From: Eledone cirrhosa
Taxonomy: Eukaryota
Reading direction: 5' to 3'
Assembly: GCA_964016885.1 (NCBI GenBank)
Contig: OZ024741.1
Coordinates: 60,202,001-60,266,000, forward strand
Length of the DNA stretch: 64,000 nt
A program made the position numbers and the translations under genes. Of the stretch, positions 8,175-41,353 are shown in pieces; position 1 is the first letter of the stretch; each line of letters starts with the position of its first letter. The notes under the pieces were generated by a model that searched no databases, was not told the DNA's origin, and saw nothing but the letters and a program-made list of their open reading frames with translations.

Positions 8175-9050
8175 AAAAGCTAAGTGACCCTTCCCATCAT
8201 TTCCCCCTCTTTGTTAAACGTGGTTTTATTCACTCAGAATAGGCTGTATAAATTCACGTGGCTTTGATTCGTGTTGGGAGCAGGGCCATTTGCTCAACAA
8301 CCTCGGATCAGTGAACATAAATGTGATAGCTAACTGTGGAACCAGAATTCCCGAGGCACGAGCCTTTGCACTCATTGTTGGCGGCGATAAGGTGTATGCA
8401 TTCCCAAGTCGTCCACAATCTGGAGGTGAAATCGCTGTAATGTTTCGGAAAGGTTTGAAATCTCACAATACGAACCATCGTCCATGACCCAGAACGTTGA
8501 TTGTGTTGGACGTGACCAGCAACGGAGGGTGGGGGGTATGCATTCAAGCTAGCGGCTGTCTGTGAACCGACAGAGGCAGGACAGCATGATATCTTAAGGA
8601 TCTTGGTGAACCTTCTTAGAACGTCTCGCTCTTTGTGAAAGACTCTTAGTGGAAGACTGAAATGGCAAATTTGACCTACGCTGGGTATATCTGGGATAGG
8701 AGAGGAGGGTTTTAAAAAATTGCAAATCTGCATAGACAGTTCTATAGCTCTGTGAGGTACCGACTGAATGTACCAATTTCGACATGGTCAAACCGTATCT
8801 AGTCATCCAGATGATATCTAGAGAGAGTATTCGATGGGGAAGTAGATATCGCTATCATTGGGTGTCCACATTTCAATGTAGTCGACTATACAGACTACAA
8901 ATCTGTGATCTGTATAGTCAAATTAAGCTTCGTTTATAGGGAACCAGTTACTGGAAGGTGAATGCATTGTTTCCAGCTCGCAAATATTACAATCACCAGA
9001 TTAGCGAATTACTTAAGGCGGGTGTAGACAATCAATCGTCAACAACGTTA
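8175..9050 (+). mobile_element. Old degenerate Tx1/L1 fragment (APE endonuclease region)
   Basis: ORF 8290-8487 (LNNLGSVNINVIANCGTRIPEARAF..SRPQSGGEIAVMFRKGL) aligns with ORF2 N-terminus at 13549-13974; similarity continues to caatcgtcaacaac near 9045. Confidence 0.85.
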
Positions 9051-9059
9051 TCCCTAATG

Positions 9060-9860
9060 CTGACAAGGCCAAGAAATTCTGGAATTGGATATAGGGAAAA
9101 ATAGGAGGCATTGAAAGGATGCAAAGTGGATAGACACCATGAAGACAGAATTGCGAGGAGGAAATATACAAAACGATATTACAATAAGCACACTCAATGT
9201 GAAGGATCAAGTGGTCAAGATATCAAACTAGAAAGCCCCTAGACAAGAGAGGACCACGGTTTGTGGTTGAAGAGATGCAGTGCAATACACGAAAGGCTGG
9301 CAACACAATTGAATGGTTGTGTCCAGAGAGATGCAGTCCTCACCCGGATGGTTAGAGAGAGAACAACGCTTCTGATAGAAGTCTGGGGAATGCTGTGAGA
9401 AACTACCACTCTATAGCATGTCTACACATAATATAGAATATTCTCACTGAGATATTTGCGGGGAAGACATATGCCTTTCTGTTACAGGAAGGAATTCTAC
9501 CAAAGGAACACAAAGGATGTAGGAAGAAACCCCAGAGTACCAAAGATCACCTGGTTATTGGTAAAACAATTTGGAGGCATTGTAAAAAACACCACGCTAA
9601 CATGTCTATGGCATGGATTGACTTTAAGAAGGCATATGATATGGTGCCCCATTTTGGATTAGTGAATGTTTGCGAATGTTTGGTATTGCTGACACCCTCA
9701 CAACGTTTATGCTGAATAGTATACCGGGGGGGGGGGCACATTTTATACTAAGGCAACGTCTCTCTGGGAGAATTAAAAATTAAAAGAGGTCTCCTCCAAG
9801 GAATTAATTCCCACCGTTACTATTTGTTAGATTACGGATACCTATAACACTCACACTTCG
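9060..9860 (+). mobile_element. Degenerate R4/Dong-type RT fragment
   Basis: Remnants of KFW, EHKGCR, AWIDFKKAYDMVPH and IKRGLLQG, collinear with ORF 24056-26113. Confidence 0.75.
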
Positions 9861-10076
9861 AAAAACAAATATAGTTGCAGCACGCTCTTGCTACCAATTC
9901 GCTGAAATATAACAGCTACACAACTTTTGACAACCAAAAATACAACCTCTGTGAAAAGGAAGTCGAAAATGGAGCTCACTTGGTAAGTGGATATGAGATC
10001 ATTGCGCCAAAGGAGGAGGCCGAAAAGGAGGCAGAAGACGAAGGAAGATGCGGAGAAGGAGGAGGAATAATAATAA

Positions 10077-10261
10077 TTGTTTCTACTTTTGGCACAAGGC
10101 TGCAATAACCCAGTGCATTGCTGGTACTTTATTTTATCGACCCGGTAAGGATGAAAGGCAAAGTTAACCTCGGCGGGATATAAACTCAGACCGTAAAGGG
10201 ACGTAACTATGCTGGAAAGCATGGTGTCCGACCCTCTACCGATAAGGCCAATTCACCGCCC

Positions 10262-10262
<1 letters not shown>
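10077..10262 (-). mobile_element. tRNA-derived SINE family A, full length
   Basis: Sense ggcggtgaattggccttatcggtag (A box)..gagtttatatc (B box variant)..ccttgtgccaaaagtagaaacaattattatt. Confidence 0.9.
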
Positions 10263-10295
<33 letters not shown>

Positions 10296-10554
10296 TTTCT
10301 TTATTAACCACAAGGGTTTACATAAAGTAGACATTAAGAACAGTGCAGGACAATGCAGGACGGTACAAATGGGCATTTCTGCGTGTAAAAAACAAAAACA
10401 GAGGATGTAACAAAAATAACAATGAAAATAACAATGAAAAATTCCCCAATAGGGGGGAGACTTCGGAGGGACATTTGTGGAGAAAGCCCAGTAAAAAGCC
10501 ACAATGACCCTGACCACCAAGGCAAGTGCCCTCTCCCAGTTTTCCACCTTTAAT

Positions 10555-13500
10555 TTACAGATATATACTCAGAGTAGGCCCATTCACTCGGGCCATTCTT
10601 GCTTCTCTCACCCATCTTTCAACAAAATGCTGGGAAGAGAGCACTTCCCTCTCTACTCTGATTTTCCTTTTCAAATGAAATTTGAAAAAGTCAATCAGAG
10701 CATCACCGAAGAGGTAAGTGCTCGTCTTCAGCCCTTTCAAACGTGTCCACCATACTATCTGTTTCGCCATGGCCACCAGACAGATAAAAACTTCCTGCCC
10801 TTCCCGGCTAAAGGAGGTGGGCGGGGCAATCCTCACGATGGACTCAGATGATAGCCGGATCCGTCCTAAACGCGACAGCAGGTGTTCGACATAAACCCAC
10901 AAGTCAGCAATTTTCGGAAACTGGACGAGTGCGTGCAGGACGGTTTCGTCGCCCTGCGCGCATCTCGGACATGCCCGGCTGACGGCACCTCCATGCCTGT
11001 AGAGTTTATCACGAACTGGCAAGGCTCCACGGTAGCACTGCCAGGCCAGAGATTTCTGGAAGTTGTCCATAGGCCCTGGCCCGAAAGTTCTTCCGAAGAG
11101 ATTGGCTAGTTGATTTTCCTCGACGCCTAGAGTTTCCCCAAGTACGTCGTCGCTCTTCCCCTCCACTAATCCTCTATAGAACGCCGAGGTGGAGTTTCCA
11201 CCGATCACATTGCCCGATTGGTCGAGGGCTGTGAGCGCCTGAAGACATTCCAGTCTCCAGGCGCTCCCTCTCGGTCTTCGCTTGACCCAGGACTGCAGCT
11301 CCGTCAAGGAAACGAGCTGGGGAAAAACGCGTCTAGCAAACGGCGACCACACCTGATCATCGTCGAGGAAGAGGTGGAGATGTCGTAGCCTGAGCGCGTG
11401 CCTGCGCATCATCATCCACGGCATGCCCAGCCCTCCACGTAGCGGGTGTTGACAACAGATGGACCGCCTGACCATCGGAGCACGTCCCTTCCACAAAAAG
11501 CGAAAGAGCAAACGCTCCAGCGCAGTCAGGCGAGGCTTAGGACAAGGTACGACGGTTAGGCGGTAGCAGATGACAGACGCGATGTACGCGTTAGCCACCT
11601 CCGCTCGACCTTTCAGGGATAGCTTCCTCTCCGCCCATTTCTGGGTGAGAGAAGCCACCCTGCTCGTCACCTCGTCCCAGTTTTTGTCCGTCTGGAGGTC
11701 CGGACCGAACCAGACCCCTAGCAATTTAACCGGTCCGTCCGTCCAGGGCCCGACGACGCTGTTGGACGGCATGGACCTGCCTCTCCAGGTGCCGAGCTGC
11801 AGGCCCACCGACTTTTCCTGGTTGATCATTGCTCCTGTCACCGCTTCGTATTCTCTTAGTGTAGTGCCGATCGCCTCGATGTGTTTGGCGTTCGACACCA
11901 CTACGGTGACATCGTCCGCATATGCTGACACGGATCTTCCACATCCTAGTTCGCGCGGGACTCCCCTCAACGTCTCCAGTTTGTGCAGTAATGGCTCGAG
12001 AGTCAATACGTACAAGAGGGACGAGAGGGGACATCCTTGGCGGACCGAGCGCATGATGTTGAACGGTTCCGACAGGTGACCGTTCACTCTCACCACAGAG
12101 CAGATGTCGCTGTGCATGGCAGCGATCCAGCCTCTGAAGACGGGCCCAAAGACAGCCGCCCTCAGGACGGCCGCTAGGTAACGATGGCCGACCCTATCGA
12201 AAGCTTTCGACTGATCTAAATTGATCAAGGACCCACCCGTGCCAGGTTCCTTAGCTACCCTCTCTATGATGTATCACATGAGGTGGAGGTTGTCGTGGAT
12301 GGATCTGTCGGGAATGGCGCATGTCTGCGCCTCTCCCACCAGACCACCAACGACAAGCGCCAACCTCTTTGCTAGCACCTTGGCCAAAATCTTGAACTCT
12401 GTGTTTAGCAGAGTTATGGGCCGGAAATTGTCTATGTTATCCCCCTTGTTCGGATCCTTTCTCAGCAGTGCCACCGCTCCTCGGCTCACAGAACTGGGAA
12501 TTCTCCCGTTCTGTTGCCAGTTGCAGTAGACGTCCGCCAAGAGGCCTCCGAACAAGTCTGGCATCGGTACGTAAAGTTCATAGTGCAGACCATCCAAACC
12601 AGGCGATTTACCCCTTGTGCAGCCAGTCATTGCCTCCCTTACTTCAGCGGCTGATATCGGCTTTTTGCAACACCTCGCCTCAGTGGCCGAGAGCCGCGGC
12701 AGTCCGTCGAGGTAGACACTAAAGTCCATCCCTCTACCCGGCCCACCGCTGCCCCCGAACAGCTGAGCGAAGTGTCGCTGAAAAGCTTCACACATTTGCC
12801 CGGGATCGAGTAGCATGCGCCCGTCGTGGTCCTCCAAAGACCGGATCGTGGGTTTGTTGCCACGACGCGCCTCCGCCACTCGGGCCCATTGAACGGCTTT
12901 CGTCCCCTCGTGTCTGAGAGCACGCACCCTAGCTCTGACAACGCAGCCTTCGTGCTTTGCATCGAAGAATTGGTCAAGGGCCAATTTCGCCGCAAGTACG
13001 TCGGTCGCGATGCCTTTGCTAAGCGCCTCGTTTAATTTTCTATTTAGTTCTCCCTCTGCTCTATTTTTCTCTATTGCTAAAGCCTTACTAAACCTAATGG
13101 ACTCTATTCTAATCGCTCTTTTCAGAGATAACCACCAATTGTTGTTGACGATGGCCCCCGTCAACGCCCGCTTAACTTGTTTGATAATCCGGTCTTTGTA
13201 GGCCTTGCGCGCTGGTAAGGACGCGTTTAGCTTCCAGTAGCCGGGTCCTCGTCTATGAAGCCTATCTAAGTCAAACACACAGATCACGAATTTATGGTCC
13301 GTGTAGCTGACTATCTTGAATTGTGGACAGCCGATGCTAGACCTATATATTTCCCTACAAAATACTTTATCTAGATATGATCTGGATGACCCGAAGCGAT
13401 TTGTCAAAGTCCACATTGGCACATTCGGGAAATCCAATCGGTACCTCTCAGACAGTTCAAAACGCCTGAGCAGGTTGGTGAGGCTCTTACACCCTCCTCC

Positions 13501-13974
13501 CCTATCCTCTAATCCCACACAGTCCCAGCGTGTATCCAAGATCCCGTTCTAGTCGCCCACTAACACTAAAGAGCGGGACGTTCCAAGAAAGATTTCCAGA
13601 CGCCGGAAGAAATCAGGCCGCCCTGCTCCTGTCGGGGCATAGATGCCCACTAGCCTGAAAGCTTTCCCGTCTCCGCTGGTCACGTCTAGCACCACCAAAT
13701 TACCTTCTGGGTTCAGGAAGATGGCCCGTATGGTGAGATCCAAACCTCTCCGAAAAAGCACAGCAACTCCTCCACCCGATCCAGGACGTCTGGGAGATGC
13801 GTACACATCGTAGCCGCGGAAGATCGGTGCGAAGGCCCGTGCTTCGGAGATTCTGGTCTCGCTGATGGCCACTACATCTATGTTTAGTGACCTGAGGTCG
13901 TTGAGCAGGTGACCCTGCTTCCATGACGACCCCAAGCCACGCGCATTTATGCTGCCTATTCTGAGTGAGGTCAT
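10555..13974 (-). pseudogene. Tx1 ORF2 (APE endonuclease plus RT), two in-frame stops
   Basis: Three same-frame ORFs: SINARGL/AISET/LVGD, KSPGLDG/FRPITLLN, DQSKAFDRV/VRQGCPLS/AYADD, CPRC..ETVLHAL; stops at 13549 and 12274. Confidence 0.93.
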
Positions 13975-14009
13975 GTTTAAAATAGAGTGGAAAAGATGGG
14001 AAAGACCAC

Positions 14010-16107
14010 TTACCGTACTTTTGGTAGAGGAGGGATGGTTTTTACATCCCTTTTCACTTGATCGTCTGGTAAAGGGACCGTTGAATCGTCCCTTCGGCTG
14101 GTCGTCGGCTCTTCTAAGAGAATGTCTGAGTATACTCTTCGATTGATGGTTCCTCCTAGGTCCCTGAAATCACCAACTGCGTTGGGGAATTTCGTTTTAA
14201 TGTTTGTGTATTGTTTCTGTGCTATTTTTAGCAGTCTTATGTTAGTTGGCGTTTTGATTGGTGCTGGTATTATGTAGTCCTGTTGTGAAATGTCTGTGTG
14301 TTCAATTATGTAAGTCATTAGTTTCTTGTTGTGTGTATTTATTGCCGTGCATTTGTTTTTCTGGGGGTGGGGTGTGGTTCTGCTATTTTCTTGTCGTTGT
14401 TGCTGGGTGTGTGTGTTTTGTTGTTGTGTTTGCGATGTTGGTGCTTGTGGTGGTGGTGTTAAAGGTGTTGTTGGCGGTGGGGTTGTCGCCGGTGGTGATG
14501 GTGGTGCTAGTGTGGGTGGTGATGGTGTTGGTGTTGTTGCTGCTGTGGGTCTCTTTGCAGTAGACTTTACCCTTTTCTCATTTCTTTCCTCCCTTTTCAA
14601 AGGCGACGATGCGCTGCTTCTGCGTTTGTGCCTTCTTACGACCTTTTGCCATCCCTCTCCCACCTCACACTCCATGTCTGATTCTGTGAGGTCGGGTAGG
14701 GGTACCAGCTCCACTCTTTCACTTGTTGTTGTTGGTGATGTTTGCACTGGAGTCTCTGTTGCAGCTGCATTTGGTATTGCTGTTGTTGTTGTTAATATTT
14801 CCACTGCTGCTGCTGTTTTTGATTTCCGTGGAGTGGGTATGGGTGCCACGGACCTATCGTTCCTGGTTGCCGCTTGTCCTGTTGCTGGTAGCCGTGGAGC
14901 CGGATTCGGAAGGAGGGGGGTTTTCTCCTTTCTCAGGGTCTTCTCGTTGCAGAAGGCCCTGAGGTGAGTCTTCGATCCACAGCGAAAGCATTTCGGGCGT
15001 TTGCCCTCAACACTTATGGGCAGTTGAGTGCCGTTATCGAAGTCTATCACATCCGGGATAGCTTCGATGCACTCCTGGTTGGTTTGGATTAGCATCTCAA
15101 TGGAGGAGCCGACCCAATCTTCTCTTACTTTTTTCTGTACATGCAGTACAGTTGTTTTGTCCTCGATTCCGACGAGGACAGACGCTGCCAGCCAAGAAGG
15201 GGTCATTCCGGGGGGGGACGTGGGTCAGTTTGACCCTCACAATTTTTTGCCCGCAGTAGGAGGGCACCAACACCATTTCCTCGCTCCTTAGGGTCACTAC
15301 TGATTGGGCCTTTGCCTCCTGGGGTGTGGCAAAAAGTTCGTCTACGGTGGCATATTTTTTGCCTCGGGTGATGTGCGTTTTCCGCTGCCAAACAGACCCC
15401 AAGGCTTTTTGTATTTGGGCCTCTGTGGCTCTTTCCACCCTACGGGATTTTGTACTTACTGTACGGTACGTGACCGTACAGTGCTCTTGGGCTTCGAAAA
15501 ATTTTTCCGCTGCCTTGCAGATTTCTCGGTGTCCTTTCTTTGTCACCATCTTCTTCGCTTCCTCTAATTCCTCATTTGTTATGAGGATTGTTTCCAAGTT
15601 TTTCGCAATACCTGCAAATGAGATTGGTTTTTCTCTGCTGTTGTTGTTGTCGTCAGAGCTGCTGGTACTTTTGTTGTTGCTGCAGGTACTACGACTACTG
15701 CCTCCGCCGCTGTTGCTGTGGTTGTTGTTGGTGTTGCTGCTGCTAATGCTGTTGTTGTTTATGCTGCTGGTGATGCTGTTGCGGCTGCTACTGTTGTTTT
15801 CATTGTCACTGTTGCTGTTGTTATTACGGCTGCTACTGCTATTATTCCTGACGTCAGACGAATGAACTGGGTTTTCGTATTTCCCGCACACCTGTTTCGT
15901 CGCTGTCGTCGTAGTCGTGGAGAAACCTTGCACGCTTTGCACGAGACTTTTCTTTTCTTTCGTCACTTGCGAAAGAGAAGGGAGGGAGAGAGACACATTT
16001 AAAGAAGGGAGGGAGAGAGACAATCTTCTCTCTGCTGTAGTGATGATTGAGGAAGAAGAAGACGGAATGAGTGGGAGTGACGTATGAAATTTCTTTTTCG
16101 TAGCCAT
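14010..16107 (-). pseudogene. Tx1 ORF1 (Gag-like, CCHC zinc knuckle), one frameshift
   Basis: ORFs 15097-16107 and 14010-15206 joined at the G-run 15209-15218; CFRCGSKTHLRAFC; Asn/Ser and Thr/Pro-rich tracts. Confidence 0.88.
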
Positions 16108-16347
16108 GTTGTTTTTTGTTTAAAATGAAATTTTGGGTACAAAACCCCAATAACTGGTTATTTAACCCCGAAGGGCCAAATAACGGACAGAAAGACCCCT
16201 CTCACGAGGAGGAGGGTGTCTTTATCAACAATTTGATTCAAGTTTTAAACAATTTACAATTGTTTTAACGGTTAAAAATTACTATACCTTACAGAGCCGA
16301 GCCTCCGTCAACCATGGCATTCAATAATAATAATAATAATAATAATA

Positions 16348-16533
16348 ATTGTTTCTACTTTTGGCACAAGGCCAGCAATTATCCCAGTGCATTACTGGTA
16401 CTTTATTTTATCGACCCGTAAGGATGAAAGGCAAAGTTAACCTAGGCGGGATTTGAACTCAGAATAACAAGGGCCGTAACTCTATGCATCAAAGCATGGC
16501 GTCCAACCCTCTACCGATACTGCCAATTCACCA
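16348..16533 (-). mobile_element. tRNA-derived SINE family A, full length
   Basis: Same family; B box gagttcaaatc; (ATT)n tail at 16323-16348. Confidence 0.9.
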
Positions 16534-16560
16534 ATATTAATAATAATAATAATAATTATT

Positions 16561-17272
16561 ATGCCGTGTATGTAAAAAACAACCAGAGACCATTGATCAT
16601 ATAATTTCAATGTGCAGTCCTATAGCTCCAACCGAATACCTAAACAGGCATGACAGAGCTGCACAATACATACATTGGATAATGTGTAAGCATTTTGACC
16701 TGCCCCATCAAAAGAATTGGTGGGAGCATCAACCACCTCCCATACTTGAAAAAGATGACATCTCAATCTTGTGGAACGTTAGCATCCAAACAGACGGAAA
16801 AATAGATGCAAATAGACCTGATATAATACTGAAGGACTTTAAAAAGAGGGTATGCCTGCTAATTGATATGTCCGTTCCAATAGACAAGAATGTATCTATA
16901 AAAACATTTGAAAAATTGAGAAAGTATAAGGACCTGGAGATAGAAATTGGAAAAATGTGGAAATTGAGAACTAAAAAAATACCAGTGGTTGTAGGCGCTC
17001 TAGGAATGATACCTAAGGGGTCTAATGATTACTTATCGCAAATGCCAGGAAACCCGCGTATAGGAGAAATACAAAAAATAGTACTAATGGGAACTGCCCA
17101 TATACTAAGGAAGATTCTGTCAATATAAGTACATCACAAGTCTAAATACCTAAAGATGCATGTGTGTGTATGTATGTTCTTTCTTGAACAAGGCAGACCT
17201 TGTTGTCTCTTGAGGTCACTGGTTGTGACTTGGTGATAACTCGTATGAACATAAAGCAAGACAAATGCAATA
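16561..17272 (+). mobile_element. 5'-truncated R4/Dong-type LINE (CCHC plus restriction-like endonuclease)
   Basis: CRVC..ETIDHIISMC, RHD, RPD, LIDMSVP, KYKDL, VVGALG in ORF 16610-17128; 3' UTR followed by (AAT)n. Confidence 0.9.
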
Positions 17273-17286
17273 GTAATAATAATAAT

Positions 17287-20200
17287 TATTTCTTTATTTA
17301 CCACAAGGGTTTACATAAAGTAGACATTAAGGACAGTACAGGACAATACAGGACGGTACAAATTGACATTTCTGCGTGTAAAAAACAAAAACAGAGGATG
17401 TAACAAAAAAAAATAACAATGAAAAATTCCCCAATACGGGGGGAGACTTCCGAGGTACATTCGTGAAGAAAGCCCATTAAAAAGCAACAGTGACCCTGAC
17501 CACCAGGGCAAGTGCCGTCTCCCAGTTTTCCACCTTTAATTTACAGACACATACTCAGAGTAGGCCCATTCACTCGGGCCATACTTGCTTCGTTCACCCA
17601 TCTTTCAACAAAATGCTGGGAAGAGACGACTTCCCTCTCTACGCTAATTTTCCTTTTCAAATGAAATTTGAAAAGGTTAATCAGGCCATCACCGAAGAGG
17701 TAAGTGCTCGTCTTCAGCCCTTTCAAACGTGGCCACCATATTATCTCTTTCGCCATGGCCACCAGACAGATAAAAGCTTCCTGCCCTTCCCGGCTAAAGG
17801 AAGAGGGCGGGGCAATCCTCACGATTGACTCAGCTTATAGCTGGATCCGTCCTACACGTGACAGCAGGTGTTCGACATAAACCCACAAGTCAGCAATGCT
17901 CGGACACTGGACGAGTGCGTGCAGGACGGTTTCGTCGCCCTGCGCGCATCTTCGACATGCCCGACTGACGGCACCTCCTTGCTTGTAGAGTTTATGCCCA
18001 ACTGGCAAAGCTCCTCGGTAGCACTGACAGGCCAGGGATTTCTGGAAGTTGTCCATAGGCCCCGGCCCGAAAGTTCTTCCGAAGAGATTGGCTAGTTGAT
18101 TTTCGTCGATGCCTAGAGTTTCCCCAAGTATGTCGTCGCTCTTCCTCTCCACTAATTCTTTATATAACGCCAAGGTGGAGTTTCCGCCGATCACATTGCC
18201 AGATCGGTCGAGGGCTGTGAGCGCCTGAAGACATTCCAGTCTCCAAGCGCTCCTTCTCGGTCTTCGCTTGACCCAGGACTGCAGCTCCGTCAGGGAGACG
18301 AGCTGGTGAAAGACGCGTCTAGCAAACGGCGACCACACCTGATCACCGTCGAGGAAGAGGTGGAGATGTCGCAGCTTGAGTGCGTGTCTCCGCATCATCA
18401 GCCACGGCATGCCTAGCCCTCGACGTAGCGAGTGTTGACAGTAGATGGAACGCCTGACCATCGGAGCGCGTCCCGTCCACAAAAAGCGAAAGAGCAAACG
18501 CTCCAGCGCAGTCAGGCGGTAGTAGATGACGGACGTGATGTACGCGTTAGCCACCTCCGCTCGACCTTACAGGGATAGCTTCCGCTCCGCCCATTTCTGG
18601 ATGAGAGAAGCCACCCTGCTGGCAGCTCGTCACAGTTTTTGTCCGTCTGGAAGTCCGTACCGAACCAGACACCTAGCAATTTAACCGGTCCGTCCAGCGC
18701 CCCACGACGCTCTTAGACGGCATGGGCCTGCCTCTCCAGGTGCCGAGCTGCAGGCCTACTGACTTATCCTGGTTGATCATTGCTCCTGTCACCGCTTCGT
18801 ATTCTTTTAGTGTAGTGCCGATCGCCTCAATGTGTTTGGCGTTCGACACCACTACGGTGACATCGTCGGCATATGCTGACACGGATCTTCCGCATCCTAG
18901 TTCGCGCGGAACCCTTCTTAACGTCTCCAGTTTGTACAGTAATGTCTCGAGAGACAATACGTACAAGAGAGGACATCCTTGGCGGACAGAGCGCATGATG
19001 TTGAACGGTTCCAAAAGCTGACCGTTCACTCTCACCAGAGAGCAGATGTCGCTGTGCATGTCTGCGCTTCTCCCATCAGACCACCAACGACAAGCGGCAA
19101 CCTCTTTGCTAGCACCTTGGCCAAAATCTTGAACACTGTGCTTAACAGAGGTATGGGCCTGAAATTATCTATGTAATCCCCCTTGTTCGGATCATTTCTC
19201 AGCAGTGCCACCGCTCCTCGGCTCACAGAGCTGGAAATTCTCCCGTTCTGTTGCCAGTTGCAGTAGACGTCCGCCAAGAGGCCTCTGAACAAGTCTGGCA
19301 TCTGTACGTAAAGTTCATAGGGCAGACCATCCAAACCAGGCGATTTACCCCTTGTGCAGCCAGTCATTGCCTCCCGTACTTCAGCGGCTGTTATCGGCTT
19401 TTCGCAGCACTCCGCCTCAGTGGCCGAGAGACGCGGCAGTCCGTCGAGGTAGAGACTAAAGTCCGTCCCTCAAACTGGCCCGCCGCTGCCCCCGAACAGC
19501 TGAGCGAAGTGTCGCTGAAAAGCTTAACACCTTTTCCCGGGAAAGTAGCCTTACTAAACCTAATGGACTCTATTCTAATCGCTCTCTTTTCAGAGCAAAC
19601 CACCACTTGTTGTTGACGATGACCCTCGTCAACGCCCGCTAAACTAGTTCGCTAATCCGGTCTCTGTAGGCCTTGCGCGCTGGTAAGGATGCGTTTAGCT
19701 TCCAGTAGTCGGGTCCTCGTCTATGAAGCCTATCTAAATCAAGCACTCAGATCACGAATTTGTGGTCCGTCTAGCTGACCATCTTGAATTGTGGACAGCC
19801 TATGCTAGACCTATCTCTTTCCCTACAAAATACTCTATCTAGATATGATCTGGATGACCCTATGCGATTTGTCCAAGTCCACATTGGCACATTCGAGAAA
19901 TGCAATCGGTACCTGTCAGACAGTTCAAAACGCCTGAGCAGGTTGGTGAGGCTCTTGCACCCTCCTCCCTATCCGCTAATCCCACACAGTCCCCATTCCA
20001 GTCGCCTACCAACACTAAAGAGCGGGGCGTTCCAATAAAGGTCTCCAGACGCCGGAAGAAATCAGGTAGCCCTGCTTCTGTCGGGGCATAGACGGCTACT
20101 AGCCTGAAAGCTTCCCCGTCTCCGCTGGGCACGTCCAGCACCACCAACTTACCTTCTGGGTCCAGGAAGATGGCCCGTATGGCGAGATCCAAACCTCTCC

Positions 20201-22610
20201 TAAAAAGCACAGCAACTCCCCACCCCGATCCAGGACGGCTAGGAGATGCGTACACACCGTAGCCGCCGAAGATCGGTGCGAAGGCCCGTGCTTCGGAGAT
20301 TCTGGTCTCGCTGATCGTCACTATATCTATGTTTAGTGATCTGAGGTCGTTGAGCAGGTGGCCCTGCTTCCATGACAGACCCCAATCCACGCGCATTTAT
20401 GCTGCCTATTCTGAGTGAGGTCATGTTGAAATGGAATGGAAAAGATGGGAAAGACCACTTACCTTACTTCTCGTAGAGGAAGGATGGTTTCTCCATCCTT
20501 TTCACTGCTTGTGGCCACCTCCGGAAGGATGTCCTTATAAATCCTACTGTAGAGTGATTGTCGGAAGTCTCCTATGTCTTTGGGGAATTTTCGTTTTAGT
20601 GTCGTGTACGTTTTCTCTGTGATGCGAGTGATTTGTATGTGTGGAGGTGGTGTGAACTTTTGGGGTGTTGTGTAGTAATTTCCTGTGATGCTGGTGTTGT
20701 GTTGGATGTAGTGTAATAATTGGTTGGTGTTCAAATTTAATGGTGTGCAATGTGTATCGTTTTGGTTGTTTTGTTTTGTTTGCGTTTGTTGAGGGTTTGT
20801 TTCTGTTTCGCTTTTTGGTGACTTTTGTGGTGTTGATGATGGTGGTGTTGGGGTTAATGATGGTGATGGTGTTGGTTTTTGTGGTGATGGGGTTGGTGAT
20901 GCTGGTGTGGATGGTGGCATAGCTGTCCTAACCTTTTTGTTTGATAGTTTATTTGTTTCCCTCTGTATTTTGTTTTTGGAGGGGGAAGGAAGAGCATTTT
21001 TTTCTTTTTGGGCTTCTTTTTCTTTTTTTCTTTTTTCCTGATACAGTTTCCCACTCCTCGTTGTCACAATCTGTCTCCACTTGCGATACGTCGGGGAGTA
21101 GAAAATCCTCCACAGGCGTTGGTTTTGGTTGTGGCGTGGTGGATGGTGGAGGCGCTGGTGCTAGTTCTGGCGCGATGAGTGGTGGTGGTGATGGTTTTGC
21201 TACTGTTGCTGGGGTTGTTGCTGCTACAGTTGCTTCTGTTGTAGCTGCTACAGTTGTTGCTGCCAGATGGTTGAGTCACTAGAATAGGTAAGGGAGGTGG
21301 CCTCAACTGTTTAGCCTGAGGGCAGAAAGCCTTTAGGTGGGTTCCTTCACCACAAACGGCACACCCAGGCCTTCTACCCCCGACGATTACGGTGAGGGGG
21401 CTGCCGTTAGTGAGGTCTATTACCTCTGGGATTTACTCAACTTTTTATTGGTCCGCTTGGATCAGGAGCTCCATCCCAGATCCGGACCAGTTCTCCTGCT
21501 TTTCTTTTGATATTTCAATTATTTTGGTGTTAGCCTCGATGCCGGCGAGGACGGCAGCTATTAGCCAGGGATTTTCGTTGGCCGGTGGAACGTGGGTCAC
21601 CCTGATCTTCACGAGTCTCTGGCCAAAAAAGCTTAGGACGAGTGTGAAGTCATCGCTTCTTAATGGGGATATGGAGTGCTCTCTGGTCTCCTGTGGTGTT
21701 CCAAAGAACACCTTCACGGTTCCATATTTCTGCCCACGTCTGATGTGGGTTTTTTTCGCCAACACATGTCCCAAAGCTTTTGGGATTTGGGACTCGGATG
21801 TCCGTTCCACTCGGCGCGATTTTCTGTTAATCGTCCGATAAGACACGGTGCATAGGCGCCGATGCTCCATTTTATTATGCGTTGGGGTGAGTCTGACCTT
21901 GTACCCATCTTTCTTTACCATTCTCTTGGCTTTATTTAATTTCTCCTGAGTTACCTCGATTGTTTCGCATTTTTTGGCTGCTTTGGCAAACGACACATTT
22001 GCGGTGGTGTTGGTGTTTTTGTTGTTATTCTCATTGTTGTTGTTGCTGTTGTTTTTATTGTTATTTTTGTTATTGTTATTTTTAGTTTCAGTTGTTGTTC
22101 AGTGATGTTCGGTGTGGAAGAATCGATTCTGGGTGAATCCATTTCGATGTCACGAGATAATTTAATTTTTTCTTTTGTTTCTGTTGTCGCTGTAGTGGTG
22201 GTGCGGGTGGCAGCTTTAACACCTACAGTGTTTGGTAATGGCGGGAAATGAATGTCTGCATGAGACAAATTTAAATTAATGCTACTGCTTATATTTTTAG
22301 TGTTGGCAAGCGTAGTAATATTTACAATGGTGGTTTTGGTGTGAGTGTTAGTTTGTGAGGAAAGCTGTCAGCCTTGTGTGGCTGTGAGTCGTCCATGATT
22401 TTTTCAAATAAATTTTTGGTTTGATAATTATAAAAGTTTAAATTTTGGGCTCAAGGCCCCAATCTTTTTGAGTGTCCTTTTCCGAAAATAATATATGTGA
22501 ACTTATAAACACTTAACAACAAAAATGTTCGATAAATGGCAATTTGAAACAACTGAAAATAACAAAACTTTGCGGAGCTCACGATAATACGATTTTCTAC
22601 GTAGGTCGCC
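17287..22610 (-). mobile_element. Tx1/L1-clade LINE copy 2, internally deleted, divergent ORF1
   Basis: 3' UTR and ORF2 closely match 10293-13974; deletions near 18515, 19058 and 19542; ORF1 fragments 20459-22268; (AAT)n at both ends. Confidence 0.93.
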
Positions 22611-22647
22611 AATAATATTAATAATAATAATAATATTAATAATAATA

Positions 22648-22895
22648 AATGATTACTTATCGCAAATCCCAGGGAACCCGCGTATAGGAGAAATACAAAA
22701 GATAGTACTAATGGGAACTGCCCATATACTAAGGAGGATTCTGTCAATATAAGTACATCACAAGTCTAAACACTAAAGAGGCATGTGTGAGTATGTATGT
22801 TCTTTCTTGAACATGGCGGACCTTGTTGTCTCTTGAGGTCACTTGTTGTGGCTTGGTGATAACTCGTATGAACATAAAGCAAGATAAATGCAACT

Positions 22896-22897
<2 letters not shown>
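22648..22897 (+). mobile_element. Second 3' fragment of the Dong-type family at 16561
   Basis: Near copy of 17025-17272, followed by (AAT)n 22897-22967. Confidence 0.9.
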
Positions 22898-22946
<49 letters not shown>

Positions 22947-22984
22947 TTAATAATAATAATAATAATACACTATATAGAACAGCC

Positions 22985-23520
22985 AAACTCACCAACACCA
23001 GAAACTAGATACACCACCCACCCCATCACCTGTGTACACTAAACCACCACTGCTCACTACGGCCATCATTACAACCATTATCCCATCACTGCCGCCACCA
23101 CTCCTTCACTCCTTCACTGCTACCACCGCTACAGCACCATCACTACAGTAATACGGTCACATCGCCGCCACCACTGCCTCGGTATCGACATCACCACCAC
23201 CACTGTCTCAGTATCGCTACCGCCGCCAGTCTCCCACTTCCTTTAGCTGGCTGCTGCCACCACATTATAGAATCCCTACTGCTAAAAAAGAGGAAGGCAT
23301 CAAAATATATAGATAGACTCAAAAGAAAAAAGAAAAAACAAACAACAAAACCAAAGCAGCACAGCAACAACAGCAAAAAACGAGAAAAACAAACAGAGAA
23401 AAACAAAAACAAAAAAAAAAAAACCCCAAAAAACGTAAAGAAAATAAGAATGAAGAGAGAAGCAGGCGGACGGACAGAGAAGAGGGGGGAAAAACTAAAA
23501 CTTAAAAAACAAAAACTAAG
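22985..23520. repeat. Low-complexity (ACC)-rich then A-rich tract
   Basis: Degenerate cac/acc triplets followed by caaaa/gaaaa runs. Confidence 0.7.
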
Positions 23521-23549
23521 TCAGACATTCGAACACTACATTACAATGA

Positions 23550-26500
23550 AACTTATGCTTATTCATTTTTGGGGCCCTTTCTGCCTGTGTGTTTGTTTGT
23601 TTATGTGTGTTCGTATACAGCGTGGTGATAATGCCACACAAGGGCCAAGTGGAATGGCGGATCCACAGATGGATATGTAACCATACATTCGCCAATCCTC
23701 GATAAGAGTGTTTAAATATCGAACATAAACAGTTCGAATAACGGTGAAATGGAGACTAGAACGTCATGTGACAGACTCTCACCCAACAGGTGCCCCCTGG
23801 CTCAGCAGCAGGAACCTGACTGTCAACCAAATACTGCTGATGTTGGAGGAAGGAGAAGAAGGAAAGGGGCCAGAACCAACTGGACGAAAGAATTGAATAG
23901 AACTGTTATGCAATGTTACCTGAAAAGTAACCCCAAGGAGAGGGGCTACAGGAGACGGATGCATAACATCTGGAACGAGATTGGTTTATTTAAATTAGAT
24001 GAACAAAAATTGGCCGGGCAGGCTCGGGTAATAAGAACTAATGGATGGATAACTAATGGAGGAACTGAGCAGAGAGAATGGCTTGGAGATAGCGGGTGTA
24101 GTATGCCAGACAAGCGAGCCAGTGGGAAATGAAGGTGAAGAGGTCCTGAGAACGGAGGAACTACCCGAAGCAGACAATGATCTGAATACTGAGATAAATA
24201 ATACCTGGAACAGAGATACGGCCACTGAGGAGATGAATGCTGACGGGCTAGGACAAGATTCGGTTGACATCCTAAATTTAGTGGTAGATGAATTGAACAA
24301 TGATAGTGGGAGACCTATGAACCTAAGATTTGTAGACAGGAAAAAGTTAACAGAAACAACAGCTAAGGTAAACAAAGTCATCCCATACCTTGAGGCGAGG
24401 AGCCTTCACCAGTGCAACAATATCCTCAAAGCAACAGCAAATACGGTGAGGAAACTACTTGGTATAAAAGCGAGAGGAAACAACAGACAAGAAAGAGCAG
24501 AGCCGTGGTGGAAGAAGCGACTGAGTGGGCAAATCGGGGAAATGAGAAATGACATAGGAAAGCTTGAGTCACTACTGAATGGGACACTAAAAAACATAGG
24601 CACTAAAAATAGGCTGGAAATAAAATACAAAACTAAGAGGAAAAAGCTAAATATTATCATAGAGGAACTGAAGCAACGCATTGTAGCAAAGAGTGCAAAA
24701 ATCAGGCGATACGAGAACAGAGTCAGTCAGTATAAACAGAACCGCATGTTCGACAACAACCAGAAGATGCTGTTTGGACAGCTTGAGGGGAAAGAAAGAG
24801 GCAACAACTTGATCCCTGGGGTGGAGCAAACTAAAACATTCTGGAGAGGAATATGGGAGCAGGGTGTTAGACACAATGCCCAGGCAGGGTGGATTGAGAC
24901 AGTACAGAGGGAGATCGGTGAGCAGGCACAACAACAAACTGATTTGAGTATCACAGTTGAAACTCTTAAGGGGCAGGCCAAAAAACTAACCAACTGGAAA
25001 TCACCAGGCCCAGATGGTGTGCAGGGGTATTGGATTAAACATTTAACATCCCTCCACCCGAAGCTGACGGCCATGTTCAATGACTGCTTGGTGTCGGGTG
25101 AGGTGCCAGAGTGGTTGACAAAAGGTACCACAGTTCTGATAATGAAAGACCGAATTAAGGGTAATGATGTTACCAACTATAGACCTATCACATGTCTGTC
25201 CGTAATGTGGAAACTGTTGACGAGCATTGTGTCTGAGGAAATCTACCATCACCTCTACACAAACAACTTGTTACCGGACGAACAGAAAGGATGCCGAAAG
25301 AAGTCACGTGGTACAAAGGACCAGTTACTTATTGATAAGATGGTCATGGGGAACTGCAGGAGGAGACACACTGATCTTGCCATGGGATGGATAGACTACA
25401 GAAAGGCATTTGACATGGTGCCTCATTCCTGGATCACCAAAAGCCTGGAGATCTTCAGGGTGGCAAATAACATCAGACAGTTGCTAGGCAGGAGTATGGG
25501 GTCCTGGGAGACAGAGTTGACATCAACTGGAGTATCCTTGGGAAGCGTGAAGATCAAGAGAGGTATCTTCCAGGGAGATAGCCTGTCCCCTCTGTTGTTT
25601 GTCCTTGCCCTGATGCCCTTGACCATTATGCTGCGAAAAGTGAGAGCAGGATACAAGTTGGGAAGGGGAGAGCTTACCATCAATCACCTCCTCTTCATGG
25701 ACGATCTTAAGCTCTTCGGGAAAAGTGAGAAGGAGTTGGATGTGCTTGTTGACACTGTCCGTATTTTCAGCAGTGATATATGTATGCAGTTTGGTATTGG
25801 TAAATGTGGAGTCATTGTGATGAAGAGGGGTAGGTTTAGCAGAAGTAACGGGATCCAGATACCAACAGGTGAGATGATAAAGGAAATTGACTCTGAGGAA
25901 GGATACAAGTATTTGGGCGTTCTGGAGGCTGATGGCATAAAGAACAAAAAAATGAAGGAATTGTTAAGAACTGAATACATTCGGAGAGTAAGGAGCGTAT
26001 TGAAGTCACATCTGAACAGCAGAAATGCCATAAGCGCAGTAAATTCCCGAGCTGTGTCTATTATTAGGTACAGTGCGGGAATTCTGAGATGGAATGTTGC
26101 TGAACAAAAATAAATGGATAGGAAGACTAGGAAGCTATTGACTATCTACAACATGTTCCACAAGAGGAGTGATGTCGATAGACTCTACCTAAGGAGATCT
26201 GAGGGTGGAAGAGGTCTTATCAGCATAGAGGACTGTGTTCAGATGGAGAAAAACAACCTATACAAATACGTGGCCTATAGTAAGGAGCCAATGCTCAGAA
26301 CTGTACTGAAGGAGGGGACAGTAGGCCAGGGGATGTCCAAGGAGGAAATAACATCAAGGAGGAAGAGCAGCCTTAAGGGAAAATCCCTTCATAGTACCTT
26401 CTTTGAGAAAACTGAATTTAGAGATCCACAGACATGGAACTGGTTGAGAAGAGGAGACCTCAAAAAGGCTACAGAAGGAATGCTAATGGCTGCGCAGGAG

Positions 26501-27209
26501 CAGGCCCTCAAAACGAAGTGGTTGAAGCACCATATCTACAAGGAGGAGGCTAGCCCACTGTGCAGGATCTGTGGAGAGAGAGAGGAGACTGTGGCTCACA
26601 TTGTGTCCGAGTGTAAACACCTAGCCCAGACCCACTATAAGGGCTGGAGACACGATGTGATGGGCAGGGTGATCCACTGGCACCTGTGCAAAGTAAACAA
26701 TTTACCACATTCTGAGAAATGGTATGAGCATAGGCCAGAGGCGGTGATGGAGAACAATCAGGTGAAGGTGCTGTGGGATTTTAGGATACAGACGGACAAA
26801 AAACTGGAACACAATAGACCTGACCTGGTGGTTGTGGACAAAGAAAAAAGATCGTGCCTGATTGTGGATGTGGCCTGCCCATTCGACACGAGAGTGCAAG
26901 AGAAGGAGAGGGAGAAAATTAACCGATACCAGGACTTAAAGTGGGAGGTAAAAAGGATTTGGAACTGCCATGAAGTCAAAGTGATCCCGATTGTCATAGG
27001 CGCACTAGGGACTATCTCAAAAAGTTTCCAGGGATGGTTAAAGAAAATCGGCCCCTTCACGCTTTTTGGAACGCTTCAAAAGGCATGCTTGCTGGGAACA
27101 GCAAGAACCCTCCGATACGTCCTGAATATCTGAGGCTGCAGGTAGTGGCCTGATATTCATTCCAACAAACTTTCCAGTTAACTAACATCAATGACTGAGA
27201 CTCAAGGAG
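23550..27209 (+). mobile_element. Near full-length R4/Dong-type single-ORF LINE (RT plus RLE)
   Basis: ORFs 23749-24132, 24056-26113 (NWKSPGPDG, YRPITCL, WIDYRKAFDMVPH, GIFQGDSLSP, LFMDD) and 26114-27133 (CRIC..H..C, RHD, RPD, DVACPFD, GALG); one frameshift, one stop; (AAT)n tail. 5' boundary approximate. Confidence 0.93.
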
Positions 27210-27216
27210 TAATAAC

Positions 27217-27257
<41 letters not shown>

Positions 27258-27259
<2 letters not shown>

Positions 27260-27600
27260 TGGCCTGCCCGTTCGACACGAGAGTGCAAGAGAAGGAGAGG
27301 GAGAAAATTAACCGATACCAGGACCTAAAGTGGGAGGTGAAAAGGATTTGGAACTGCCATGAAGTCAAAGTGATCCCGATTGTCATAGGCGCACTGGGGA
27401 CTATCTCCAAAGGTTTCCAGGGATGGTTAAAGAAAATCGGCCCCTTCACGCTTTTTGGAACGCTTCAAAAGGCATGCTTGCTTGGAACGGCAAGAACCCT
27501 CCGATACGTCCTGAATATCTGAGGCTGCAGGTAGTGGCTTGATATTCAATCCAACGGACTTTCCAGTTAACCAACATCAATGACTGAGATTCAAGGAATA
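27258..27600 (+). mobile_element. Tandem 5'-truncated copy of the same Dong-type LINE
   Basis: Repeats 26868-27209 with scattered substitutions; sits in the (AAT)n tail and is followed by (AAT)n(AAG)n. Confidence 0.92.
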
Positions 27601-27610
27601 ATAATAATAA

Positions 27611-27641
<31 letters not shown>

Positions 27642-27680
27642 AAGAAGAAGAAGAAGAAGAAGAAGAAAGATGAATGAGCA

Positions 27681-40100: not shown

Positions 40101-41036
40101 ATCTCACTTAGGATTAGGAAAGCAAGTGATGCTTTCGGAAAGCTAGAAAGGAGACTCTGGGGTCGGCGAGACATATGCAGGAGGACAAAGGTAAAGGTGT
40201 ACAGGGCATGTGTACTCTCTTGTCTTCTTTATGCCTGCGAGACTTGGGTCACATATCGACGCCACCTTAAGCAATTGGAGCGTTTCCATCAGATGTGTCT
40301 CAGACGGATCCATGGCGTTCACTGGAGGGACCACATCAGTGATTTCGAGATTTTGGAAAGCTCTATGAGTGACAGTATAGAAGCTCTTGTGCTTAAGCAA
40401 CGACTCCGTTGGAGTGGTCACCTTGCCAGGATGAAGGATTCTAGAATACCAAAACAACTCTTCTATGGAGAGTTGGTTAAAGGAAAACGACCGCCACATA
40501 AACCAAAAAAGAGGTATAAGGATTCCTTGAAAGCCTCTCTGAAAGACGCTAAAATCTCTGCTGATACATGGGAAAATATTGCTGCTGATCGTAATAAATG
40601 GAGAAAGACTGTATATGAGGGAAAAGTTGCCTTTGAGGCATCTCGAATCGCACACGAGAAAGTAAAGCGGGACGTGAGGAAGGGCATTGCTGTTGCACTT
40701 CCAGACGGCGAGGGTCCTCCTATGGTGCTGACATGCAGCGTCTGTGCGAGACTCTGCCTAAGCAAAGCTGGACTCGAAAGTCATCTTCGCAGTCATAAAG
40801 TAAGACCAGTGGTTGACTACGAGGCTGCTGTTGGAGATGCTACTCATCATGCTTGCCAAACATGTGGTAGAGAATGTAAATCAGCAGGAGGGCTCAAGCG
40901 ACATGCAAAAGTACACGAACTCCAACCACAGCCGACTATTCCCAGTGAATGTTTTGGTTGCCAACTCTGTGCAAGACATTTTAGATCATTGGCTGGGCTA
41001 AAAATCCACATTCGATCGCAGCACTGTTAGTTGCTA

Positions 41037-41076
<40 letters not shown>

Positions 41077-41353
41077 GCTTATGTGCGTGCGTGTGTGTAT
41101 ATATATATGAATATGTATATTATTATTGTTGTTGTCGTTATTATTATTATTGCTATTATTATTGCTATTATTATTATTATTATTATTATTATTGTTATTA
41201 ATGTATGTGTGAGTGTATGTGTATGTATGTGTGTATGTATATATGTATGTATGTATATATATATATATATATATTTCTTTTTTTTTATTATTATTATTAT
41301 TTTTTTTTCTTCTCTTGCAATGGCCATACTCGATAACGAGGGGGCAGCCATCA
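37170..41353 (+). mobile_element. RTE-clade LINE with three C-terminal C2H2 fingers, nearly intact
   Basis: Partial 5' UTR, single long ORF, 3' UTR expanded by microsatellites, terminal ggccatactcgataacgagggggcagccatcat then (CATA/TA)n. Confidence 0.93.
37485..41030 (+). pseudogene. RTE ORF (APE, RT, 3x C2H2) with one in-frame stop and YADD to YAHD
   Basis: GCWNVRTL, VALSETRL, LGDFNARVG, WTDHRLV, YRGISLLS, FVDLTKAFD, GVKQGD, LYAHD; TAA at 39429-39431 separates two same-frame ORFs; fingers CSVC..H..H, CQTC..H..H, CQLC..H..H. Confidence 0.92.

What the first reader, a model, noticed from the sequence alone, without database searches (positions are those of the whole stretch)
10067..22967. 13 kb train of six retroelements in one (AAT)n landing pad with family-specific polarity
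Seen order: (AAT)-SINE(-)-(AAT)-Tx1(-)-(AAT)-SINE(-)-(AAT)-Dong(+)-(AAT)-Tx1(-)-(AAT)-Dong(+)-(AAT), with essentially no other DNA between them. Tx1 and SINE always read into (ATT)n, Dong always into (AAT)n. Known: Dong/R4 elements target TAA repeats and some Tx1 families (Kibi, Koshi) target TC/TTC repeats. Inference: an APE-type and an RLE-type enzyme converge on opposite strands of one microsatellite, and every insertion regenerates the target, giving a self-extending array.
Basis: partly seen in the sequence, partly recalled or inferred. Interest (0 to 1): 0.75.

Follow-up and report, generated by a model that had tools for sequence, protein, structure and literature searches.

The report
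Retrotransposon train on shared AAT repeat
Eight jumping-gene copies of two unrelated kinds, plus a short hitch-hiker that likely borrows one kind's enzyme, sit end to end in one AAT repeat facing opposite ways, a genome-wide habit here that likely arises because each kind cuts a different strand and leaves repeat on both sides for the next.

Summary
Targeting is genome-wide. 1,627 of 1,682 full-length Tx1-like 5' ends follow (ATT)4 (background 0.014%). 843 of 1,410 Dong 5' ends follow AATAATA, against 3 after ATTATTA. 5'-truncated copies keep the same polarity, so the tracts are targets and not only tails.

One correction: the SINE is not a microsatellite specialist. Only 3 of 47 randomly sampled copies sit in tracts, about what any ATTAT site gives (3.3%). 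It does share a covarying CUUGU hairpin tail with the Tx1 families, so Tx1 likely mobilises it.

Opposite strands of one repeat (SART/TRAS) and APE/RLE convergence (Keno/Utopia) have precedents. An (ATT)n-targeting Tx1, a Tx1-tailed SINE and the LINE-versus-SINE gap in specificity were not in the papers I searched. This scan noted such trains and the shared tail before, on other DNA of this genome. Nick sites are inferred, not assayed. Verdict: new variant of a known kind.

The parts
10066..10077 (+). (AAT)4, left end of the train, after a purine-rich AGG/AAG stretch
10078..10263 (-). SINE copy 1 (tRNA-like head; 3' hairpin with CUUGU loop as in Tx1)
10264..10293 (+). (AAT)10 tract
10294..16322 (-). 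Tx1a, full-length 6.03-kb L1/Tx1-type LINE, 98.3% to intact copies. ORF1 16107-14010 is frameshifted; ORF2 13974-10555 (APE, RT, zf-RVT) has nonsense codons at 13549 and 12274
16323..16349 (+). (AAT)9 tract, the 5' flank of Tx1a
16350..16532 (-). SINE copy 2 (87% to copy 1)
16533..16557 (+). interrupted AAT tract
16558..17270 (+). DongA, 5'-truncated (last about 715 of 4,945 bp; endonuclease region and 3' UTR)
17271..17286 (+). short tract with (AAT)4, tail-to-tail junction DongA/Tx1b
17287..22610 (-). Tx1b, older sister family: own 5' UTR, ORF1 about 50% (N-terminal part) to Tx1a, ORF2 DNA 90-93% to Tx1a, internal deletions
22611..22647 (+). interrupted AAT tract, Tx1b 5' end to DongA junction
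22648..22897 (+). DongA, 5'-truncated to 250 bp (98.4% to other copies)
22898..22964 (+). longest tract, about 22 units
22965..27210 (+).
27211..27256 (+). AAT tract with (AAT)14
27257..27596 (+).
27597..27667 (+). (AAT)5 then (AAG)18, right end; likely the rest of the original compound microsatellite (inferred)

Best explanation
This is a chain of eight independent retrotransposon insertions of different ages in one AAT microsatellite, with Tx1-type LINEs always reading into (ATT)n and Dong-type LINEs into (AAT)n, likely because the Tx1 AP endonuclease nicks the (AAT)n strand and the Dong restriction-like endonuclease nicks the (ATT)n strand to prime reverse transcription. Shown: order, polarity, genome-wide repeat flanks on both sides, polarity at truncation points, and co-clustering of the two kinds. 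Inferred: each insertion splits one tract into two, and a target duplication or tail tops them up, so the number of targets grows and later elements land beside earlier ones. The SINE ends in the same small CUUGU hairpin at the same distance from the ATT tail as the Tx1 families, so it is likely copied in trans by Tx1 ORF2. It needs only an ATTAT site (duplications of 6-27 bp) and joins trains as a passenger. The LINE's extra need for a tract of 4 or more units would then come from something beyond the minimal nick, such as a long (AUU)n RNA tail pairing with the primer, ORF1p, or a newer, stricter endonuclease. Which of these applies is untested.
For: Tx1a 5' ends: 1,663 of 1,682 follow TATT and 1,627 follow (ATT)4 (the 1,682 leave out copies with T at -3). 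30 of 30 taken in genome order have 4-27 perfect units; background 0.014%. Dong 5' ends: 843 matches after AATAATA and 3 after ATTATTA, of 1,410; those 3 sit on long (AAT)n with a short flip; 27 of 30 in genome order have 4 or more AAT units. Truncated 5' junctions: Tx1 13 of 25 on (ATT)3+, 0 on AAT; DongA 33 of 49 and DongB 33 of 45 on (AAT)3+, 0 on ATT. In 790 kb of grid-sampled DNA, 17 of 17 LINE-tract junctions have the predicted polarity. A LINE lies across the tract for 21 of 30 Tx1a ends against 10 of 53 random tracts (p 5e-6). Tx1a-Dong pairs within 20 kb: 26 against 5.6 expected locally, 21 on opposite strands. APE catalytic motifs align to human L1 ORF2 (E 4.5e-50). 11 of 19 full-length Tx1a copies have both frames open. 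Hairpin pair 2 is C-G in 59 of 61 Tx1 ends and G-C in 141 of 152 SINE ends; covariation 0.53 against 0.25 shuffled (0 of 500) and at most 0.16 when slid.
Against: No nick was measured and no orthologous empty site was available. 12 of 25 Tx1 and 28 of 94 Dong truncated junctions lack three perfect units, and that sample was partly found through neighbours and may list a copy twice. The SINE shows no tract preference although it is proposed to use the same enzyme. Tx1a duplications are hidden in repeat and are at most 3-6 bp in 4 of 20 copies. 2 of 26 SINE-tract junctions are in the other orientation, and one Tx1 3' end (L057) runs from a short ATTAT into (AAT)n. The hairpin has only 4 pairs, the fourth paired in 55% of SINE ends; my search fixed the loop; the 18 aligned rows were chosen by me and reflect few independent changes. 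The 53 random tracts include split ones, and two loci supply most LINE junctions. The RT tree does not join Tx1a to the TX1-labelled vertebrate proteins with support.
Confidence: 0.8

Rival explanations
1. The tracts are only 3' tails of the elements, and there is no targeting.
For: All families end in the repeat. For the SINE this is close to true: 44 of 47 random copies lack (ATT)4 upstream.
Against: The 5' ends of 1,627 of 1,682 Tx1a and most Dong copies also abut the repeat, including at arbitrary truncation points and in head-to-head junctions that have no tail.
Confidence: 0.02
2. The 5' (ATT)n of full-length Tx1a is a leader carried in its own RNA. The enzyme sees only ATTAT, like the SINE, and trains reflect selection for safe regions.
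For: The full-length 5' junction is nearly always in exact phase (1,663 of 1,682 end in TATT), while only 13 of 25 truncated Tx1 junctions have the tract. The SINE needs only ATTAT.
Against: None of 20 full-length copies shows a SINE-like duplication of unique sequence outside the tracts (one shares an 8-mer in low-complexity DNA). 52% of truncated junctions on the tract is far above the 4% of ATTAT sites with (ATT)3 upstream. Selection would have to remove almost all insertions of a family about 98.6% identical.
Confidence: 0.1
3. The train arose by tandem duplication or unequal crossing-over of a few inserted units.
For: Elsewhere, four Tx1a copies 6.15-6.19 kb apart share one non-AAT spacer (L107-L110), and two share an identical Dong-piece flank (L093, L094). 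24 of 25 close Tx1a pairs are on the same strand.
Against: In this window the paired members are divergent and differently truncated: Tx1a/Tx1b 90-93% with different 5' halves, SINEs 87%, DongA pieces 94%.
Confidence: 0.04
4. The LINE story holds, but the SINE is moved by another LINE (for example the RTE family that also has ATT in its tail) or by an extinct relaxed Tx1 lineage, not by Tx1a or Tx1b.
For: Different target breadth (6% against 97% in tracts). The SINEs are older (79-93% to the window copy). Only 27 bases are shared.
Against: The loop, stem position and spacing match four sampled Tx1 tail types, with compensatory changes. By eye the DongA, DongB and RTE 3' ends lack the motif. 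Crocodilian SINEU-1 and -2 also show weaker target preference than SINEU-3, with Tx1-Mar the proposed mobiliser (PMC4494074).
Confidence: 0.2

Closest known systems
SART and TRAS of Bombyx mori in (TTAGG)n (PMC7265360, passages read)
   Same: Two LINE families insert into one simple repeat in opposite orientations; three repeat units suffice for SART1; RNA-target annealing is proposed there.
   Different: Both are R1-clade APE elements (recalled) at telomeres. Here an APE and an RLE-type element share a dispersed microsatellite, and a SINE joins in.
Kibi (TC)n, Koshi (TTC)n and crocodilian Tx1 (TTCC)n/(TTTC)n (PMC4494074, passages and part 3 of 5 read; PMC3812793, passage read)
   Same: Tx1-type APE LINEs that target a microsatellite.
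   Different: The target here is (ATT)n, equal to (TTA)n, one base from Koshi's unit and not listed in these papers. Kinship to Kibi/Koshi could not be tested (no reference sequences).
Dong (Bombyx, Anopheles, Biomphalaria) targeting (TAA)n (PMC3812793, passage read); Dong-R4 listed as recently active in Octopus vulgaris (PMC13282606, parts 1-2 of 3 read)
   Same: TAA/AAT target on the sense strand; single frame with RT and a C-terminal endonuclease.
   Different: Nothing essential. New families that share the target with Tx1; the octopus paper gives no targets in the parts read.
Keno (APE) and Utopia (RLE) on U2 snRNA genes (PMC4640811, passages read)
   Same: An APE and an RLE element reached the same target in parallel; tandem arrays occur.
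   Different: They share the same 3' flank in a low-copy gene. Here they use opposite strands of a repeat that each insertion multiplies.
SINEU with Tx1-Mar in crocodilians (PMC4494074); stringent SINE-LINE pairs with a 3' stem-loop such as UnaL2 and ZfL2 (PMC4176376, passages read)
   Same: A SINE likely moved by Tx1, with weaker target preference in some families; a shared 3' stem-loop marks stringent pairs.
   Different: In the part read, SINEU is tied to Tx1 by shared target and heads, not by a shared tail hairpin. The stem-loop pairs named there are of the CR1/L2, Tad1 and RTE clades.

Membership tests
Tx1 clade | ORF2 with N-terminal AP endonuclease and RT | tested here: met
   Pfam Exo_endo_phos and RVT_1; human L1 ORF2 E 4.5e-50 with the N, E, Y, D-x-N, D and DH catalytic positions aligned (their catalytic role is recalled)
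Tx1 clade | Separate ORF1 with a CCHC knuckle; C-terminal zinc-binding region in ORF2 | tested here: met
   702-aa frame with a CX2CX4HX4C motif; zf-RVT E 9e-6, just under its cut-off, and above it in Tx1b
Tx1 clade | Target-sequence specificity (over 20% of flanks of one type, criterion of PMC4494074) | tested here: met
   1,627 of 1,682 on (ATT)4
Tx1 clade | RT tree position among reference Tx1 elements | tested here: inconclusive
   RT 40-42% to automatically TX1-labelled proteins, 28% to a plant L1-like protein; tree gives an own clade with an Argonauta protein (100/99) inside an unresolved L1-like group; no curated references on hand
Kibi/Koshi lineage | (TC)n or (TTC)n target | tested here: not met
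   Target is (ATT)n; a few copies sit at (CTT)n/(ATT)n borders
Kibi/Koshi lineage | Sister position in the RT tree | not testable with these tools
   No Kibi or Koshi sequence was returned by name
Dong / R4 clade | Single frame, RT followed by CCHC knuckle and PD..D/E-K endonuclease, no APE | tested here: met
   RVT_1 E 8e-24 and no APE hit; motifs read by eye in DongA and DongB
Dong / R4 clade | (TAA)n target on the sense strand | tested here: met
Dong / R4 clade | RT tree position with Bombyx Dong and R4 | not testable with these tools
   None of the 120 listed relatives (of 2,047) carried an informative name; 'Dong' rests on architecture and target
tRNA-derived SINE | Short, non-coding, high copy, with target-site duplications | tested here: met
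   186 bp; 140 hits in 790 kb; duplications in 40 of 47 near-full copies
tRNA-derived SINE | tRNA-like head with A and B boxes | tested here: inconclusive
   Box-like motifs seen by eye against a recalled consensus; ARAGORN and Rfam find no tRNA
Stringent SINE-LINE pair | Shared 3' tail with stem-loop | tested here: met
   (27-base tail, 4-pair stem)
Stringent SINE-LINE pair | Mobilisation by the partner ORF2 | not testable with these tools
   needs a retrotransposition assay
MetaSINE | 66-bp Meta domain after the head | tested here: inconclusive
   No likeness by eye to the bivalve MetaSINEs in part 1 of 4 of the supplement of PMC4824008; no alignment run

The most novel reading that the evidence does not exclude
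Octopod genomes hold a self-propagating 'landing-pad' system in which an active Tx1 lineage and Dong divide the two strands of (AAT)n and build mixed trains genome-wide, while the very abundant SINE is a stringent Tx1 partner through a CUUGU hairpin. The same ORF2 puts its own RNA into tracts 97% of the time and the SINE into single ATTAT sites, so microsatellite specificity is set largely by the RNA or RNP and not by the endonuclease alone.
Probability: 0.4. Interest if true: 0.7.

Novelty: new variant of a known kind. Interest (0 to 1): 0.5.

Why it matters
It adds a target, (ATT)n, to the Tx1 repertoire in a family with at least 1,682 full-length 5' ends and many intact copies, so the enzyme can be studied directly. 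The LINE and its likely SINE partner differ sharply in target breadth, which makes an old question testable: how much of repeat targeting comes from the endonuclease and how much from the RNA. It also names a likely driver for one of the most abundant SINE groups in this genome (2.4% of 790 kb sampled) and offers a cause for local piles of transposons. It is not a new class of element, and each ingredient has a precedent.

Tried and rejected
RNA evidence: no RNA holder was listed. Laying four contig sets gave nothing on transcript ends, splicing or expression, which is no evidence either way. Rfam gave only repeat-driven microRNA hits below threshold; ARAGORN gave none. Naming Dong relatives failed, and the tree could not fix Tx1 membership. 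The genome-wide SINE ratio (at most 1,793 of 32,961 heads after (ATT)3) is rough: the cores differ in length, the numerator double-counts, and a satellite of SINE heads inflates the denominator, so I rely on the random sample. The far-side neighbour count for Dong (15 of 30 'none') is unreliable because my script often stopped inside long tracts, so it is not used. Ordering the insertions by shared ATT interruptions was dropped because such interruptions recur at many loci. No sister genome is held, so no empty site could be compared. No structure or complex was predicted, since the alignment already showed the catalytic motifs. Literature: 8 searches answered; none listed a paper describing an (ATT)n-targeting Tx1 or a Tx1-tailed cephalopod SINE. 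Kojima and Fujiwara 2004, Repbase entries, the tree figure and supplements of PMC4494074, the supplement of PMC13282606 and most of Table 1 of PMC3747384 were not seen and could hold such a record. Also seen: passages of PMC4758252, PMC3747384, PMC9115989 and PMC4824008.
Full report
What is there. The window lies at G000:C2:60,202,001 in a 3.0-Gb animal genome. The closest named RT relative of the Tx1-like element is an Argonauta protein at 73%, so the host is probably an octopod (inference). From 10,066 to 27,611 there are eight elements and nine AAT tracts and nothing else: SINE(-), Tx1a(-), SINE(-), DongA piece(+), Tx1b(-), DongA piece(+), DongB(+), DongB piece(+). The train ends in (AAG)18 and starts after an AGG/AAG-rich stretch, so the original site was likely a compound microsatellite (inference). 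Nearest-copy identities in my sample run from about 87-92% (Tx1b) to 100% (last Dong piece), which points to insertion over a long time.

The elements. Tx1a is 6,029 bp. The window copy has two nonsense codons in ORF2 and a frameshifted ORF1. 11 of 19 full-length copies examined have both frames open, with median pairwise identity 98.6%; these copies were picked for closeness to the window's 5' end, and one of 20 with a large deletion was left out. ORF2 has AP endonuclease, RT and zf-RVT and aligns to human L1 ORF2 at E 4.5e-50. A tree of 25 RT domains places it with the Argonauta protein and unnamed relatives but does not resolve its link to TX1-labelled vertebrate proteins. DongA (4,945 bp) and DongB (4,543 bp) share a 5' end and have RT, a CCHC knuckle and a PD..D-type endonuclease motif. 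The name Dong rests on this layout and on the target, since no relative was named.

Targeting is genome-wide. Exact-pattern counts give 1,682 Tx1a 5' ends (copies with T three bases upstream not counted), of which 1,663 follow TATT and 1,627 follow (ATT)4. The first 30 in genome order carry 4-27 perfect units. In 400 kb of grid-sampled DNA, (ATT)4 precedes 0.014% of positions. Of 1,410 Dong 5' ends, 843 matches follow AATAATA within 2 bases and 3 follow ATTATTA; those 3 lie on long (AAT)n with a short flip, and 27 of the first 30 have 4 or more AAT units when single mismatches and up to 13 bases of slack are allowed. Dong's 5' tracts are longer than Tx1a's (median 18.5 against 9 units, p 0.004).

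Targets, not only tails. At 5'-truncation points scattered along the elements, 13 of 25 Tx1 junctions sit on (ATT)3+ and none on AAT; 33 of 49 DongA and 33 of 45 DongB junctions sit on (AAT)3+ and none on ATT. I dropped 27 junctions classed as internal deletions, hits under 100 bp or 85%, and hits near locus edges; many rows were found as neighbours of other elements, so these shares are not unbiased. In 790 kb of grid-sampled DNA (79 stretches) there were 53 tracts of 4 or more units, some split. All 17 LINE-tract junctions and 24 of 26 SINE junctions follow the rule.

Trains exceed random tract choice. Across the 5' tract of Tx1a lies another Tx1 or Dong in 21 of 30 cases, against 10 of 53 random tracts (p 5e-6, not corrected for tract length). 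Among the first 100 listed 5' ends of each kind on C1, 26 Tx1a-Dong pairs lie within 20 kb, against 5.6 after local jitter (maximum 19 in 2,000), and 21 of the 26 are on opposite strands. Longer tracts next to LINEs, regional selection and duplication could all contribute. Duplication is likely for some same-family tandems with identical spacers (L107-L110; L093 and L094) but not for this train.

The SINE is a passenger. Of 47 near-full copies in the random sample, 3 have (ATT)4 upstream, and 40 have a duplication of 6-27 bp (median 14), most starting with ATTAT. Only 147 of 4,417 ATTAT sites (3.3%) have (ATT)4 upstream, so the SINE shows no clear tract preference. I had noted the shared Tx1-SINE tail motif; the hairpin reading came from an earlier scan note, which I then tested. 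Around the fixed CUUGU loop, pair 2 is C-G in 59 of 61 Tx1 ends and G-C in 141 of 152 SINE ends; pair 3 is A-U in 57 Tx1 ends and G-C in 4 Tx1 and 133 SINE ends; 18 ends were unclassified. On 18 chosen rows the covariation score is 0.53 against 0.25 shuffled (0 of 500) and at most 0.16 when slid. Two of the five measures (pairs with a double change, further pair types) did not exceed the shuffles. The stem is short and the independent changes are few, so the partnership is likely, not shown.

Mechanism. By the established TPRT model the primer is the strand opposite the element's sense, so Tx1 and the SINE would be primed on the (AAT)n strand and Dong on the (ATT)n strand (inferred). SINE duplications starting at ATTAT fit a nick 3' of AATAAT on that strand with the RNA's AUU tail pairing to it. 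In a tract the duplication is itself repeat, so one target becomes two: 20 of 20 full-length Tx1a have 5 or more units 5' and 16 of 20 have 4 or more perfect units 3'. In 4 of 20 the duplication can be at most 3-6 bp, similar to the 11 of 47 SINEs with 6 bp or none. Why the LINE needs a tract and the SINE does not is open; a long (AUU)n tail, ORF1p, or an older relaxed Tx1 enzyme are the candidates.

Comparison with what is known. Opposite orientation in one repeat is known from SART and TRAS (PMC7265360, passages). APE/RLE convergence on one target is known from Keno and Utopia (PMC4640811, passages). Dong on TAA and Kibi/Koshi on TC/TTC are listed in PMC3812793 (passage) and crocodilian Tx1 on TTCC/TTTC in PMC4494074 (passages, part 3 of 5), which also proposes Tx1-driven SINEU. 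Dong-R4 and L1-Tx1 are recently active in Octopus vulgaris, with no targets given in the parts read (PMC13282606, parts 1-2 of 3). Eight searches listed no (ATT)n Tx1 and no Tx1-tailed cephalopod SINE; Repbase and subscription papers were not searchable. Earlier notes of this scan describe 18.5-kb and 32-kb trains and the shared tail elsewhere in this genome; they are leads, not support.

Verdict. Real, far beyond chance, and general in this genome. It is a new variant of a known kind: new target for a Tx1-type family, shared with Dong on the other strand, plus a likely stringent SINE partner with relaxed targeting. Interest 0.5.

Noticed in passing
window 14002-14016 (-) and about 20455-20469 (-): A splice-donor-like G/GTAAGT overlaps the ORF1 stop codon in Tx1a and is present at the matching place in Tx1b, as earlier scan notes report. 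No RNA data to test it.
   Followed up: partly
G000:C1:10,316,700-10,355,300: Dozens of SINE-head matches spaced in multiples of about 45 bp over at least 39 kb: a satellite built from the SINE 5' end; a smaller one near C1:1,982,000.
   Followed up: no
G000:C2:124,761,035-124,779,836 (L107-L110, L134): Four near-identical Tx1a copies 6.15-6.19 kb apart share a roughly 140-bp spacer resembling the two-tract tail of the RTE family (window 41118-41301): duplication or read-through.
   Followed up: partly
window 37410-41300 (+): RTE-like LINE (APE, RT, C-terminal C2H2 fingers, one nonsense codon) with a (GT)n then (ATT)n tail; the same tail flanks several random tracts, so it may seed new landing pads.
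   Followed up: partly
window 1333-3932 (+): Two long frames with a YVDD motif and no Pfam hit, Penelope-like by eye; related DNA lies next to trains in L137 and L138.
   Followed up: no
window 8181-9802 (+): Decayed Tx1-like 5' ORF2 piece (68% to Tx1a) on the plus strand joined directly to a decayed Dong-like piece with no AAT tract: another family, outside the train.
   Followed up: no
L175 (DongA 5' UTR, element positions about 855-920): A SINE 3'-end fragment with the hairpin lies in sense orientation inside this DongA copy's 5' UTR; not checked in other copies.
   Followed up: no
L012, L024, L025 (G000:C17:26,598,360-26,599,400): Five head-to-tail SINE copies separated by the same 20-bp duplication.
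   Followed up: no
L124, L140, L144, L148, L153, L085; window 27612-27667: Insertions often sit at (CTT)n/(ATT)n borders; TTC is the Koshi target, one base from TTA.
   Followed up: no
window 32481-34634 (-): A further decayed Dong-like element outside the train.
   Followed up: no
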